Shown: positions 38,935 through 41,028 of the stretch, piece after piece
How the letters are laid out: every line of letters starts with the position of its first letter
How positions within the stretch are numbered: position 1 is the first letter of the stretch
NCBI RefSeq assembly: GCF_050920415.1
Contig: NZ_CP169309.1
Direction: 5' to 3' (one strand)
From: Escherichia coli
Lineage (GTDB): Bacteria > Pseudomonadota > Gammaproteobacteria > Enterobacterales > Enterobacteriaceae
DNA: 64,000 nucleotides
Notes under the pieces: generated by a model
Told to the model about the DNA's origin: nothing
Databases searched by the model: none
Seen by the model: the letters and a program-made list of their open reading frames with translations, nothing else
Program-made: the position numbers and the translations under genes

Positions 38935-41028
38935 TTATACCAACGCGCTCTCCATCTGTTTTTCAAATGCCTGACGGATTAATCCCATAATGTAAGGAAG
39001 TTGTGCGAGGTCGCTGAAACCAATTTCTACATCGCCATTGCCCCAGCGCCCAACATTTGTGACATCTTTGGCAATACCTTTCGGATCGACCAGTTCATGA
39101 AACTGCATATTAAGCGACAATCGCAGTCGGCTTTTTTGCGGCACAACATCAACAAAATTCGTTTCCGCTTTAAACGCAATATAGAGCTTCAATACTTCCT
39201 GCGTGATCCCTGCGTCCAGGCGCATAACTTCATCGCGAAGATGATCGAATAACACCCGGCTATGCGAACCATCAGCAAGAAAAGGATAATCACTCAGGCT
39301 GTAACTGGTTTTGTTCTCCGGCTGCGCCCGATAAACAGCTAAAACCTCTTCAGGAAGAGCAGGCGCTTGCCAGACCTGAACCGCGAGATCGGCCAGACGA
39401 TCGGCTCGGGCGTGAATGGCAGCTTCATCCCATTTTTCGCACTGTCCAAGACCGATATTCAAATAGAGCGGGCTATGTTTAAAGCCATCTTCAATATCGC
39501 GTTTTTCCGCGAAAGGTCTGTCACTGTAGCGGGAGTTATAGCGCGTTAATGTGAGATTCCCCAACGTATGCAACAGTTCTTTATGCACACGCTGCCAGTC
39601 GCTTCCCAGCTCTTCACGCCATTTAGCCGACAAATTTTCGTTCTGCGGCATAATGTGCTCAATCGTAAACTCTTCCACGCGCTCTCTGCGTTTATCGTTT
39701 TCCAGTCGTCGTAACCAGTAACTGCGACTGCGGAAGTTATAGAGATCGCGAACTTTTAATTCCCGTTTAAATTCATCATCGTTGGGGAAACGACGATATG
39801 AAGGTAGATTCAGAAAATGTACCTGAATACTTTCCAGATAATTTTCTTTATTAATAACTTTATAAAAAGTGGCAAACGTCTTGTTAAGAGAATTTGTCGG
39901 AATCGCACATACTGCACGGCGGAAAACATAAGATTCAATTGAACGAATTATGCTCAGGAAATCTTCGTGAGACAAATCGCCATTTTTATAGTCATGATAA
40001 AGCGCCAGTAAGAAAGGATACGCTACATCGACCTTTAACTCGCGCAAATCCTGAAAAGCCGTAGCAAGCGATTTGTCACTTTCTTTTCCCAATGCCATTG
40101 CACAGTAATACTCCGCGTAGATGTGAATATCTTCAACCAGCCGATCTACGCCTTTTTCAGCAACACTCTGGCTACGGGCATGTAGTTTAAATGCCTCATA
40201 GACTTCATCTGTCCGAGGGATCTCCCCCGTTTTTACCGTCAGATAATGACGCATAAAACTGTCAAAATATTCGCTGTAACCTTGCTGACCAAAAGCGACT
40301 TCCATTGGACGCCAGTGATCTTCATACAACCGGGTTTGATGCTCTGGTTCGAGGCCCATCAGGATAAAATTGCGCACCAGATCGGCCTGACTTAACGCCT
40401 TACCGGTGGAGTTCATACTTTCAAAAATCAGTTGCGGATTATCCTGGCCACGATTAAGTGCCACATCGACAATTAATAACTTTGCTAACCCACGACATAA
40501 GGGGATCAAGTCATCACCGAGTTTGGCAATTTGCTCATCAAAGAAAGTAAAGTTTTCCATTATTCGATGGGAATAGTTTTCTGGCATTGGTCTTTGTTTT
40601 ATTAACGCCAGTAGACTGTCTTTATCAGTCTCGGTCAGCAGTAATTTAAAACCTTTCTCGCCGGACTCATAAGGATTGAGCAAATAATAATTACGCAATT
40701 TCATTGCCGAAAAGCCATCAAAAACTTCGTCTTCGCCAAGATGGCGCGATAAAGCCTCAATCAGCAACATTGCGGTCGTCAGCCGCTGCTGACCATCAAT
40801 GACCAGCAACGGAGAAATACCAGAAACCTGATACAACCCCTGCTCAATATAAACAACCGAACCGATAAAATGCGCTGATATATCGTCACGCTTTCCGGCA
40901 CGAATGATGTCGTCCCAAAGTTGCCGACATTGTTGCCCGGTCCATGAATAGGTGCGTTGATAAATGGGAATAACAAACTGCTGCGAACGTTTTAAAAAAT
41001 CGAGTAGGCGAGCCTCTGTGGCTTTCAT
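38935..41028 (-). CDS. GmrSD-family type IV restriction enzyme-like protein (N-terminal DUF262 ParB-like NTPase, C-terminal DUF1524 His-Me nuclease)
   Basis: 697 aa; DGQQRLTT motif in the N-terminal third and an HNH-like motif (EHIMPQN) in the C-terminal third. Confidence 0.8.
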   Translation of the reverse strand: MKATEARLLDFLKRSQQFVIPIYQRTYSWTGQQCRQLWDDIIRAGKRDDISAHFIGSVVYIEQGLYQVSGISPLLVIDGQQRLTTAMLLIEALSRHLGEDEVFDGFSAMKLRNYYLLNPYESGEKGFKLLLTETDKDSLLALIKQRPMPENYSHRIMENFTFFDEQIAKLGDDLIPLCRGLAKLLIVDVALNRGQDNPQLIFESMNSTGKALSQADLVRNFILMGLEPEHQTRLYEDHWRPMEVAFGQQGYSEYFDSFMRHYLTVKTGEIPRTDEVYEAFKLHARSQSVAEKGVDRLVEDIHIYAEYYCAMALGKESDKSLATAFQDLRELKVDVAYPFLLALYHDYKNGDLSHEDFLSIIRSIESYVFRRAVCAIPTNSLNKTFATFYKVINKENYLESIQVHFLNLPSYRRFPNDDEFKRELKVRDLYNFRSRSYWLRRLENDKRRERVEEFTIEHIMPQNENLSAKWREELGSDWQRVHKELLHTLGNLTLTRYNSRYSDRPFAEKRDIEDGFKHSPLYLNIGLGQCEKWDEAAIHARADRLADLAVQVWQAPALPEEVLAVYRAQPENKTSYSLSDYPFLADGSHSRVLFDHLRDEVMRLDAGITQEVLKLYIAFKAETNFVDVVPQKSRLRLSLNMQFHELVDPKGIAKDVTNVGRWGNGDVEIGFSDLAQLPYIMGLIRQAFEKQMESALV

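What the first reader, a model, noticed from the sequence alone, without database searches (positions are those of the whole stretch)
38935..41028. GmrSD-family DUF262/DUF1524 nuclease occupies the mcrBC position
The 697 aa protein has the DGQQR motif of the DUF262 ParB-like NTPase domain and an HNH-like EHIMPQN motif in its C-terminal part, the architecture of GmrSD, SspE and BrxU modification-dependent restriction enzymes. It sits exactly where K-12 has mcrBC, convergent with symE, suggesting functional replacement of one modified-DNA restriction system by another.
Basis: partly seen in the sequence, partly recalled or inferred. Interest (0 to 1): 0.6.

Follow-up and report, generated by a model that had tools for sequence, protein, structure and literature searches.

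The report
GmrSD-like nuclease in E. coli's mcrBC slot
An intact 697-residue GmrSD-superfamily defence nuclease sits where E. coli K-12 carries mcrBC, but the arrangement is common, was described in 2015, and its DNA target is still untested.

Summary
Window 38935-41028 (- strand) is an intact 697-aa ORF. Pfam finds GmrSD_N/DUF262 (4e-34, DGQQR at aa 78-82) and GmrSD_C/DUF1524 (2e-26, EHIMPQN at aa 457-463).

Alignment with K-12 shows a 2.2-kb cassette (38885-41119). It lies between the symE stop codon and yjiS, where K-12 has 7.6 kb of yjiT-yjiV-mcrC-mcrB.

This is not new. He et al. 2015 listed the same gene (UTI89_C5048, 98.7% identical here) as an immigration-control-region GmrSD homologue at a locus lacking McrBC. 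A 2025 EcoSal review states the replacement outright. Silas et al. 2025 place close relatives (74-76% identical) in CLS_001, their commonest enterobacterial GmrSD cluster.

The gene is in 1520 of 5426 complete E. coli genomes, against 597 for mcrBC. It is under strong purifying selection (dN/dS about 0.05).

Small additions from this work:
- The tail has a YjbR/YdhG 'double-wing' fold.
- Homologues at least 70% identical are embedded in very different type I R-M operons across phyla.
- RefSeq splits the intact gene into a fragment plus a pseudogene.

Modification-dependent restriction remains an inference. The closest solved relatives (DndI, SspE) sense phosphorothioate instead.

The parts
38935..41028 (-). 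Complete CDS (697 aa plus stop) of the GmrSD-like nuclease
   Evidence: ORF list and translation. The N-terminus MKATEA matches the family consensus. The exact protein is on 46 public contigs.
40363..41004 (-). GmrSD_N / DUF262 ParB-like NTPase domain (aa 9-222)
   Evidence: Pfam PF03235, 4.1e-34. Confidently modelled by AF2.
40783..40797 (-). DGQQR NTP-hydrolysis motif (aa 78-82)
   Evidence: Motif search. D78, G79, Q80, Q81 and R82 are invariant or nearly invariant in 40 homologues. Mutating this motif abolishes defence in HEC-06 and ATPase activity in DndI.
39787..40362 (-). All-helical linker region (aa 223-414)
   Evidence: The AF2 secondary structure shows helices from 228 to 406.
39388..39786 (-). 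GmrSD_C / DUF1524 His-Me finger nuclease domain (aa 415-547)
   Evidence: Pfam PF07510, 1.6e-26.
39640..39660 (-). EHIMPQN nuclease motif (aa 457-463). N491 (39556-39558) and N498 (39535-39537) complete the (D/E)H-N-N site.
   Evidence: E457 in 38 of 40 homologues, H458 in 39, N491 in 40, N498 in 39. The equivalent residues are essential in Eco94GmrSD (D507, H508, N522) and HEC-06 (E471, H472).
38938..39363 (-). C-terminal DUF5655 tail (aa 556-697) with a YjbR/YdhG-like 'double-wing' alpha/beta fold and conserved TNFVD, DPK and GRWGNGD motifs
38896..38921 (.). 10-bp GC-rich hairpin between the convergent stop codons of symE and the nuclease gene; a possible bidirectional terminator
   Evidence: Folds at -20.2 kcal/mol on the + strand and -19.6 on the - strand, with z-scores -3.8 and -2.6. 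The consensus terminator scan did not call it.
41029..41124 (-). 96-nt upstream region between the yjiS stop and the ATG, with an AAGGA Shine-Dalgarno-like element 9 nt before the start. yjiS is co-oriented, so read-through transcription is possible.
   Evidence: Sequence read. No promoter-like site above chance was found there.
38885..41119 (.). The whole cassette that differs from K-12; 45.1% GC
   Evidence: blastn breakpoints against MG1655. GC 45.1% and GC3 43.7%, against GC3 of 63-68% in neighbouring core genes.

Best explanation
The gene encodes an autonomous, single-polypeptide defence nuclease of the GmrSD (DUF262-DUF1524) superfamily, acquired horizontally into the E. coli immigration control region.

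Shown here:
- The ORF is intact.
- It has a ParB-like NTPase domain with DGQQR, a helical linker, a His-Me finger nuclease domain with E457-H458...N491...N498, and a C-terminal DUF5655 domain with a double-wing fold.
- The gene is under purifying selection.
- It fills the slot that holds mcrBC in K-12.
- In other phyla, homologues at least 70% identical sit inside type I R-M operons.

Inferred by analogy with Eco94GmrSD, BrxU, HEC-06, SspE and DndI:
- NTP binding and hydrolysis at the DGQQR site gates a conformational change.
- That change licenses or withdraws the His-Me nuclease on DNA.
- The tail supplies an additional DNA contact.

Most likely (inferred, about 55-60%) the enzyme is a type IV enzyme. 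It would cut incoming DNA that carries base modifications E. coli itself does not make, such as hypermodified cytosines of T-even-like phages. It would therefore cover the phages that escape the neighbouring type I system, the role McrBC plays in K-12.
For: - Domains and motifs.
- Confident AF2 model (pLDDT 87.6), whose best PDB matches are DndI, SspE and BrxU.
- PADLOC full-length matches to Orf5/DndI-type (3.7e-223), HEC-06 (1.9e-66) and the type IV model mREase_IV (3.1e-28).
- dN/dS 0.04-0.06 between intact E. coli alleles.
- Cassette boundaries against K-12.
- Low GC.
- Present in 1520 of 5426 complete genomes.
- In 5 of 6 distant genomes the homologue is co-oriented and overlaps hsd genes inside type I operons of unrelated families (the GmrSD-like protein is 68-89% identical, Hsd subunits mostly 22-52%).
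- No dnd or ssp genes in the 64-kb window.
- Literature: ICR GmrSD homologues; CLS_001; motif mutants kill defence in HEC-06; GmrSD-like genes are frequently embedded in type I R-M systems.
Against: - No experiment on this clade is retrievable. Whether CLS_001 was one of the five newly active systems in Silas 2025 is shown only in a figure image.
- The protein is only about 24% identical to prototype GmrSD according to He 2015.
- By sequence and fold it is nearer to the phosphorothioate-sensing DndI and SspE, which are not classical modification-dependent enzymes.
- The role of the tail rests on fold similarity alone.
- About one third of sampled E. coli copies carry a frameshift and UTI89 has D78E, so the gene is dispensable in some lineages.
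Confidence: 0.6

Rival explanations
1. The enzyme follows DndI/SspE-like logic. It scans DNA and is restrained, or activated, by a mark on the host's own DNA. That mark could be the m6A written by the type I methyltransferase it usually travels with. The enzyme would then attack DNA that lacks the mark, acting as a second effector for the type I system rather than as a type IV enzyme.
For: - DndI (9jfl) is the best match among solved structures by sequence (E 1.4e-12) and by fold (Foldseek E 5e-16, TM 0.52/0.59), followed by SspE.
- The best PADLOC model is named Orf5, the old name of DndI.
- DndI Y25, its phosphorothioate-sensing residue, aligns with the conserved Y23 here.
- Translational coupling with hsd genes is seen in 5 of 6 distant loci.
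Against: - There are no dnd or ssp genes in the window or in the six other loci.
- The surrounding type I systems belong to unrelated families (22-52% identity) with different specificity subunits, while the nuclease is 68-89% identical. Specific partnership is therefore unlikely.
- In E. coli the gene is convergent and separated from hsdR by symE, and it co-occurs with different type I families (window against UTI89).
- Y23 belongs to the YQR motif, which is nearly invariant across the 40 aligned family homologues, so its conservation says little about phosphorothioate sensing.
- Identity to DndI is only about 18%.
Confidence: 0.12
2. The locus is a decaying remnant, a pseudogene, as the RefSeq annotation of the identical sequence implies (a 387-aa fragment plus an 'incomplete' DUF262 pseudogene).
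For: - PGAP annotation of NZ_CP169399.1, SS17, 98224 and UTI89.
- A real 1-nt deletion at codon ~267 in strain 155. Matches of 2093 bp, one base short of the 2094-bp ORF as in strain 155, occur in 11 of 33 evenly sampled full-length hits.
- D78E and P21T in UTI89 and F246C in SS17, all at nearly invariant positions.
Against: - In the window the ORF is uninterrupted for 697 codons.
- Every family-invariant residue checked is kept.
- Full-length 697-700-aa homologues are the rule.
- dN/dS is 0.04-0.06.
- The split annotation is explained by reference proteins WP_001304006 and WP_001304007, which derive from frameshifted genomes such as strain 155.
Confidence: 0.04
3. The protein is a defence nuclease whose trigger is not a DNA modification at all. 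Candidates are a phage protein, an anti-restriction DNA mimic, or a DNA structure, sensed through the DUF5655 tail. It would be a back-up that fires when the type I system is inhibited.
For: - The tail is highly conserved, with invariant N624, D648 and Q686 and a GRWGNGD loop.
- DUF5655 also occurs in another candidate defence protein, PDC-S18, next to a weakly PD-(D/E)XK-like domain.
- Embedding in type I operons resembles known back-up systems (discussion in Payne 2024).
Against: - Nothing direct supports it.
- Every characterised DUF262-DUF1524 protein reads a DNA chemical mark.
- YjbR and MotA-type double-wing domains are DNA binders (plus my own knowledge of the YjbR and MotA literature).
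Confidence: 0.1

Closest known systems
ICR GmrSD homologues of pathogenic E. coli (APECO1_2080, UTI89_C5048, ECP_4674, LF82_736) described by He et al. 2015 (Sci Rep 5:9747, Fig. 8)
   Same: It is the same gene in the same slot. The UTI89 copy lies between the yjiS remnant and symE and is 98.7% identical over 697 aa. The paper notes that McrBC is absent from the locus in these strains.
   Different: The window allele keeps the canonical D78 and P21, where UTI89 has E78 and T21. Here it accompanies a type I system unrelated at the DNA level to EcoKI, whereas UTI89 has an EcoKI-like hsdRMS plus mrr. He et al. did not test the protein or note the DUF5655 tail.
CLS_001, the most populous enterobacterial GmrSD cluster of Silas et al. 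2025 (Nat Commun 16:7828)
   Same: CLS_001 contains AGB79837 (D782_3934, 74% identical to the window protein) and WP_001531297 (76%). Both sit in the ICR next to a type I R-M system, and in the FGI57 locus symE is also present.
   Different: Those two members sit in a different ICR slot, between fic and hsdM. I infer membership of the window allele from 74-76% full-length identity; I did not read it from the cluster list. The outcome of their phage test for CLS_001 is only in a figure image.
HEC-06 (Payne et al. 2024 preprint), a GmrSD-like single-gene defence embedded in Hma systems
   Same: PADLOC HEC-06 models match aa 8-555 at 1.9e-66. It has the same DGQQR and EHxxP motifs, and both were shown to be essential for defence.
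   Different: HEC-06 lacks the DUF5655 tail (its models are about 560 residues long) and sits in Hma rather than in a type I R-M operon or the ICR. The match is far weaker than to the family-specific Orf5 model.
DndI (PDB 9JFL) and SspE (6JIV, 7DRS), phosphorothioate-sensing nickases
   Same: These are the best solved-structure matches by sequence and fold, with the same NTPase-linker-His-Me layout. NTP hydrolysis at DGQQR controls DNA binding and nicking.
   Different: Identity is 16-18%. There are no dnd or ssp modification genes nearby. DndI and SspE have no DUF5655 tail. DndI cuts phosphorothioate-free DNA, which is the opposite logic to a type IV enzyme.
Prototype GmrSD (EcoCT596, Eco94GmrSD, UT enzyme) and BrxU
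   Same: They share the two-domain core, NTP-stimulated His-Me nuclease activity, and restriction of glc-hmC/hmC (and 5mC for BrxU) phage DNA. The PADLOC mREase_IV model, 629 positions long, matches at 3.1e-28.
   Different: The prototypes are prophage-borne or BREX-embedded. Identity is about 24% (He 2015), or 14% to BrxU in the structural alignment. BrxU's RLFDS motif is absent here. The prototypes have no tail domain.
McrBC of E. coli K-12
   Same: It occupies the same chromosomal slot next to symE and has the same presumed ecological role, restriction of modified DNA.
   Different: The proteins are unrelated: McrBC is a GTPase plus a PD-(D/E)XK nuclease in two subunits. McrBC is rarer, in 597 against 1520 of 5426 genomes.

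Membership tests
GmrSD superfamily (DUF262 + DUF1524 single-chain nucleases) | N-terminal DUF262/ParB-like NTPase domain with a DGQQR motif | tested here: met
   Pfam GmrSD_N 4.1e-34. DGQQR at aa 78-82, conserved across 40 homologues.
GmrSD superfamily (DUF262 + DUF1524 single-chain nucleases) | C-terminal DUF1524 His-Me finger domain with a (D/E)HxxP motif and downstream Asn residues | tested here: met
   Pfam GmrSD_C 1.6e-26. E457-H458-I-M-P461, N491 and N498 are conserved.
GmrSD superfamily (DUF262 + DUF1524 single-chain nucleases) | Fold resembling solved members, with a helical linker between the two domains | tested here: met
   AF2 pLDDT 87.6. Foldseek probability 1.00 to DndI, SspE and BrxU.
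[quoted passage not shown] | Cleaves only DNA carrying a modified base (glc-hmC, hmC, 5mC); NTP-stimulated | not testable with these tools
   This needs plaque assays and in vitro cleavage. The only possibly relevant experiment (CLS_001 in Silas 2025) is not readable as text.
[quoted passage not shown] | No cognate modification gene required; stand-alone gene | tested here: met
   It is a single gene with breakpoints immediately either side. It occurs next to different type I families and once next to Mks/Wadjet genes.
DndI / SspE phosphorothioate-sensing nucleases | Genetic linkage to dndBCDE or sspABCD phosphorothioate-modification genes | tested here: not met
   No such genes are in the 64-kb window or in six homologous loci.
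DndI / SspE phosphorothioate-sensing nucleases | Phosphorothioate-sensing Tyr in an N-terminal hydrophobic pocket (DndI Y25, SspE Y30) | tested here: inconclusive
   Y23 aligns with DndI Y25. However, it lies in the YQR motif, which is nearly invariant across the 40 aligned family homologues.
BrxU | Embedded in a BREX locus; RLFDS nucleotide-binding motif | tested here: not met
   No BREX genes are nearby. No RLFDS-like motif is present. BrxU is the weakest of the significant structural matches (E 1.9e-5).
Type I R-M-embedded GmrSD-like cassette (GmrSD_N + GmrSD_C + DUF5655, about 700 aa) | Three-domain architecture, about 700 aa, at least 68% identity among members | tested here: met
   All 120 best homologues carry PF03235, PF07510 and PF18899. 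Pairwise identity is 68-89%.
Type I R-M-embedded GmrSD-like cassette (GmrSD_N + GmrSD_C + DUF5655, about 700 aa) | Co-oriented with, and overlapping, hsd genes inside a type I operon | tested here: not met
   In the window the gene is convergent to hsdMSR and separated from it by symE/symR. It is adjacent to the type I system but not embedded in it.

The most novel reading that the evidence does not exclude
This unusually conserved three-domain clade is not a classical modification-dependent enzyme. It is at least 68% identical from E. coli to Kiritimatiellota and cyanobacteria, and it is translationally coupled inside type I R-M operons of unrelated families. It could be a generic accessory effector of type I systems. 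Its DUF5655 double-wing tail, or its NTPase domain, would read a self mark or a failure of type I restriction, using DndI-like logic. The E. coli ICR copy would then be a decoupled version of that module.
Probability: 0.12. Interest if true: 0.6.

Novelty: already known. Interest (0 to 1): 0.22.

Why it matters
The gene matters mainly as context. It is one of the commonest defence genes of E. coli, present in about 28% of complete genomes including O157:H7 and UPEC lineages, and more than twice as frequent as K-12-type mcrBC. It probably shapes which modified-DNA phages and plasmids can enter those strains.

Three practical points follow:
- RefSeq systematically annotates the intact gene as a fragment plus a pseudogene, so defence-system censuses based on PGAP proteins may undercount it or mislabel it.
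- Its substrate is still unknown, and its nearest solved relatives use a different self/non-self logic. Labelling it a 'GmrSD type IV enzyme' is a hypothesis, not a fact.
- The DUF5655 tail is an unstudied domain that recurs in defence nucleases.

None of this changes the overall picture of the immigration control region.

Tried and rejected
- **K-12 YjiT as a truncated homologue.** BLASTP found no similarity, so this was rejected.
- **NCBIfam.** No family matched.
- **Promoter and terminator consensus scan of 38300-41500.** Counts were no better than in shuffles and nothing was found upstream of the ATG. The hairpin was found only by folding.
- **Whether CLS_001 was active against T-even phages in Silas 2025.** I searched the main text and 16 supplements. 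The result is only in figure images.
- **Papers naming the locus tags or WP accessions.** Only He 2015 turned up.
- **Literature on DUF5655.** There is essentially none.
- **The Aravind-lab phosphorothioate paper.** It does not mention GmrSD, DndI or YjbR.
- **Shorter proteins carrying the tail as possible new architectures.** Most are metagenomic fragments of the same family. Only PDC-S18 (P0247) is a distinct architecture, and its N-terminal nuclease assignment is weak (E 0.19-0.32).
- **The pseudogene reading implied by PGAP.** I considered it and rejected it for this window.
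Full report
**1. What is there**

The window is an E. coli chromosome. It is 100% identical to NZ_CP169399.1 over the region tested. [quoted passage not shown]

Coordinates 38935-41028 on the minus strand hold an uninterrupted ATG-initiated ORF of 697 codons. Pfam-A gives three domains:
- GmrSD_N (DUF262), aa 9-222, E 4.1e-34.
- GmrSD_C (DUF1524), aa 415-547, E 1.6e-26.
- DUF5655, aa 591-690, E 3.4e-13.

DGQQR is at aa 78-82 and EHIMPQN at aa 457-463, followed by GNLTL at aa 490-494.

**2. Position**

symE (38547-38888, + strand) and its antisense RNA SymR (38476-38552; Rfam 93 bits) lie immediately downstream in convergent orientation. The two stop codons are 46 nt apart. 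Between them is a 10-bp GC-rich hairpin at 38896-38921, folding at about -20 kcal/mol on either strand.

blastn of window 28001-50000 against K-12 MG1655 shows collinear homology that stops at 38884 and resumes at 41120. The intervening 2.2 kb replaces 7.6 kb of K-12 DNA carrying yjiT, yjiV (a pseudogene), mcrC and mcrB. YjiT is unrelated to the new protein.

The cassette has 45.1% GC and a GC3 of 43.7%, against a GC3 of 63-68% in neighbouring core genes. This is as expected for horizontally acquired DNA.

On the other side of symE the strain carries a type I hsdM-hsdS-hsdR operon and a 388-aa Mrr-like nuclease. Neither has DNA similarity to K-12's mrr-hsdRMS.

**3. Is the gene alive?**

RefSeq annotates the identical sequence as two features: a 387-aa 'GmrSD restriction endonuclease domain-containing protein' starting at Met311, and an 'incomplete' DUF262 pseudogene. 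I traced the reason.
- E. coli strain 155 has a real 1-nt deletion at codon ~267. This splits the gene into WP_001304007 (293 aa) and WP_001304006 (387 aa).
- Those fragments appear to serve as reference proteins.
- As a result, genomes with a perfectly intact 697-codon ORF are annotated as 'frameshifted' or 'incomplete'. Examples are SS17, strain 98224, UTI89 and the window's own strain.

In the window every family-invariant residue I checked is present: P21, Y23, Q24, R25, Y27, W29, D78-R82, E203, N206, E457, H458, P461, Q462, N491, N498 and K509. Pairwise dN/dS between intact E. coli alleles is 0.04-0.06, with dS of 0.11-0.13. The exact protein occurs on 46 public contigs, and its 90% cluster has 3852 member sequences. 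The gene is therefore intact and selectively maintained here.

Decay does occur elsewhere. Of 33 evenly sampled full-length matches, 11 are 2093 bp, one base short of the ORF as in strain 155. UTI89 has D78E and P21T, and SS17 has F246C.

**4. How common, and is it known?**

In 5426 complete E. coli genomes the gene is found in 1520, and 1402 of these cover at least 80% of it. The identity bands are:
- One genome at 99% or above and 1396 at 95-99%.
- 117 at 60-80%. In the one such genome examined (strain M21816) this second allele sits between fic and hsdM.

K-12-type mcrBC is found in only 597 genomes.

The arrangement is already published.
- He et al. 2015 (PMC4437046, section 17 and Fig. 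8) list APECO1_2080, UTI89_C5048, ECP_4674 and LF82_736 as GmrSD homologues in the ICR. They remark that McrBC is absent from the locus in those strains. I confirmed that the UTI89 gene is in the same slot and 98.7% identical.
[quoted passage not shown] It gives ICR frequencies of 12% for GmrSD and 6% for McrBC.
- Silas et al. 2025 clustered enterobacterial GmrSD proteins. Their largest cluster, CLS_001, contains D782_3934 and WP_001531297, which are 74% and 76% identical to the window protein. They synthesised a representative of each group and tested it against T-even phages. Which groups were active is shown only in a figure I cannot read.

**5. What the protein looks like**

With a 40-sequence alignment, AlphaFold2 gives a confident model (mean pLDDT 87.6, pTM 0.72). 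It has an alpha/beta N-terminal domain, a long helical region (aa ~228-450), a beta-beta-alpha element around aa 455-495, and a separate C-terminal alpha/beta domain.

Foldseek against the PDB returns:
- DndI (9JFL), E 5e-16, TM 0.52/0.59.
- SspE (7DRS and 6JIV), E 1e-14 to 4e-9.
- BrxU (7P9K), E 2e-5.

Sequence search of the PDB gives the same order.

PADLOC's best model is 'Orf5' (PDLC02693, E 3.7e-223, full length). Orf5 is the original name of dndI. Next come HEC-06 (1.9e-66) and, much weaker, mREase_IV (3.1e-28) and SspE. The protein is thus a clear member of the DUF262-DUF1524 superfamily. It is not a close relative of any biochemically characterised member.

This is the 'double-wing' alpha/beta fold. 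From my own knowledge, YjbR was proposed to be a DNA binder on this basis.

The tail carries conserved TNFVD, DPK and GRWGNGD motifs. It also recurs elsewhere, sometimes in tandem. One case is PDC-S18, another candidate defence protein, whose N-terminus weakly resembles PD-(D/E)XK nucleases. A role in DNA binding or sensing is a reasonable inference, but it is only an inference.

**6. Context in other organisms**

Full-length homologues of about 700 aa with the same three domains are at least 69% identical across Gammaproteobacteria, Kiritimatiella and cyanobacteria. More distant ones lie on plasmids of cyanobacteria, roseobacters, Deinococcus and a methanogen.

In five of six loci examined the gene sits inside a type I R-M operon. 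These are Kiritimatiella, Oceanimonas, a filamentous cyanobacterium, Salinivibrio and Halopseudomonas. In each the gene is co-oriented with the neighbouring hsd genes and overlaps them by a few bases. The sixth locus, in Nitrincola, lies next to Mks/Wadjet-like genes.

The nuclease is 68-89% identical between these loci. The surrounding HsdM, HsdR and HsdS are only 22-52% identical, except in one closely related pair. The nuclease is therefore a highly conserved cassette that lodges in unrelated type I systems. This argues for an autonomous module that benefits from co-regulation, not for a specific protein partnership. It fits the observation of Payne et al. 2024 that GmrSD-like genes are frequently embedded in type I and Hma systems.

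In E. coli the cassette is beside the type I operon but not inside it.

**7. Mechanism**

Shown: the domain set, the conserved catalytic residues, purifying selection and the genomic context.

Inferred from characterised relatives:
- NTP binding and hydrolysis at DGQQR drives a conformational switch that controls the His-Me nuclease. The supporting results are loss of defence in the HEC-06 Q79A, R80A and E471A/H472A mutants, loss of ATPase in DndI R87A and of nicking in DndI N541A, and loss of cleavage in Eco94GmrSD D507A, H508A and N522A.
- The most likely target is foreign DNA with modifications that E. coli does not make.

Two points favour that target. There is no cognate modification gene in the window or the sampled loci. 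And pairing with type I systems makes functional sense, because hypermodified phages evade type I restriction.

I put about 0.6 on this reading. The main rival, at about 0.12, is a DndI/SspE-like logic in which a host mark regulates the enzyme. Its support is that DndI and SspE are the nearest solved relatives. The diversity of the partner type I systems and the absence of dnd/ssp genes argue against it.

**8. Verdict**

The finding is ordinary and already known. The added details may be useful: the DUF5655 double-wing tail, the striking conservation of the cassette across unrelated type I operons, the systematic RefSeq mis-annotation, and the lineage-specific decay. They are incremental.

Interest is 0.22. 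Novelty is 'already known'.

Noticed in passing
window 38935-41028; L001 12536-14629; L003, L004, L005; L017 16385-18478: RefSeq/PGAP splits the intact 697-codon ORF into a 387-aa CDS plus an N-terminal 'pseudogene' in many genomes. The likely cause is that the reference proteins (WP_001304006 and WP_001304007) come from genomes such as strain 155 that carry a real 1-nt deletion at codon ~267.
   Followed up: yes
L003 (strain 155); the hit list: Of 33 evenly sampled full-length matches in complete E. coli genomes, 11 are 2093 bp rather than 2094 bp, which indicates a frameshift. Many of them are O157:H7. UTI89 carries D78E and P21T, and SS17 carries F246C, all at nearly invariant positions. 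The gene is therefore decaying in some lineages.
   Followed up: partly
L006 5996-8095 (E. coli M21816): A second allele, 76% identical at the protein level (WP_001531297), sits in a different ICR slot between a fic gene and hsdM. The 60-80% identity band that includes it holds 117 genomes. Enterobacteriaceae FGI57 has the same layout.
   Followed up: partly
L009, L010, L012, L014, L015 compared with window 32050-41028: The GmrSD-like protein is 68-89% identical across phyla. The type I HsdM, HsdR and HsdS that surround it are only 22-52% identical. It is a conserved cassette embedded, with overlapping start and stop codons, in unrelated type I operons.
   Followed up: yes
window 30205-30623: A BrnA antitoxin gene (30205-30507, - strand) lies next to a truncated BrnT toxin remnant (30522-30623), at the yjiA edge of the ICR.
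   Followed up: no
window 30820-31986: A 388-aa Mrr-like restriction endonuclease matches PADLOC PDC-S02 at 2e-206 and mREase_IV at 1e-26. It is a second putative type IV enzyme in the same island and is unrelated at the DNA level to K-12 mrr.
   Followed up: partly
window about 10400-26700: About 16 kb of metabolic genes lies between tsr and btsT, which are adjacent in K-12. The block includes a MurR/RpiR regulator, 4-hydroxyproline epimerase, a D-amino-acid deacylase, an aldehyde dehydrogenase and permeases.
   Followed up: no
window 49727-51784: A 685-aa pentapeptide-repeat protein gene is preceded by a very low-GC stretch (0.32 at 49500-49999). It is inserted between the DUF3343/ytiA gene and yjiK, which are adjacent in UTI89.
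   Followed up: no
window 43120-44076: The rpnD (yjiP/yjiQ) recombination-promoting nuclease gene is an intact 318-aa ORF here, whereas it is a pseudogene in K-12 MG1655.
   Followed up: no
P0247 (628 aa); P0134: DUF5655 also occurs in tandem copies. It is found in the PADLOC candidate defence protein PDC-S18, whose N-terminus weakly resembles PD-(D/E)XK nucleases (HSDR_N_2 and NucS_C, E 0.2-0.3).
   Followed up: partly
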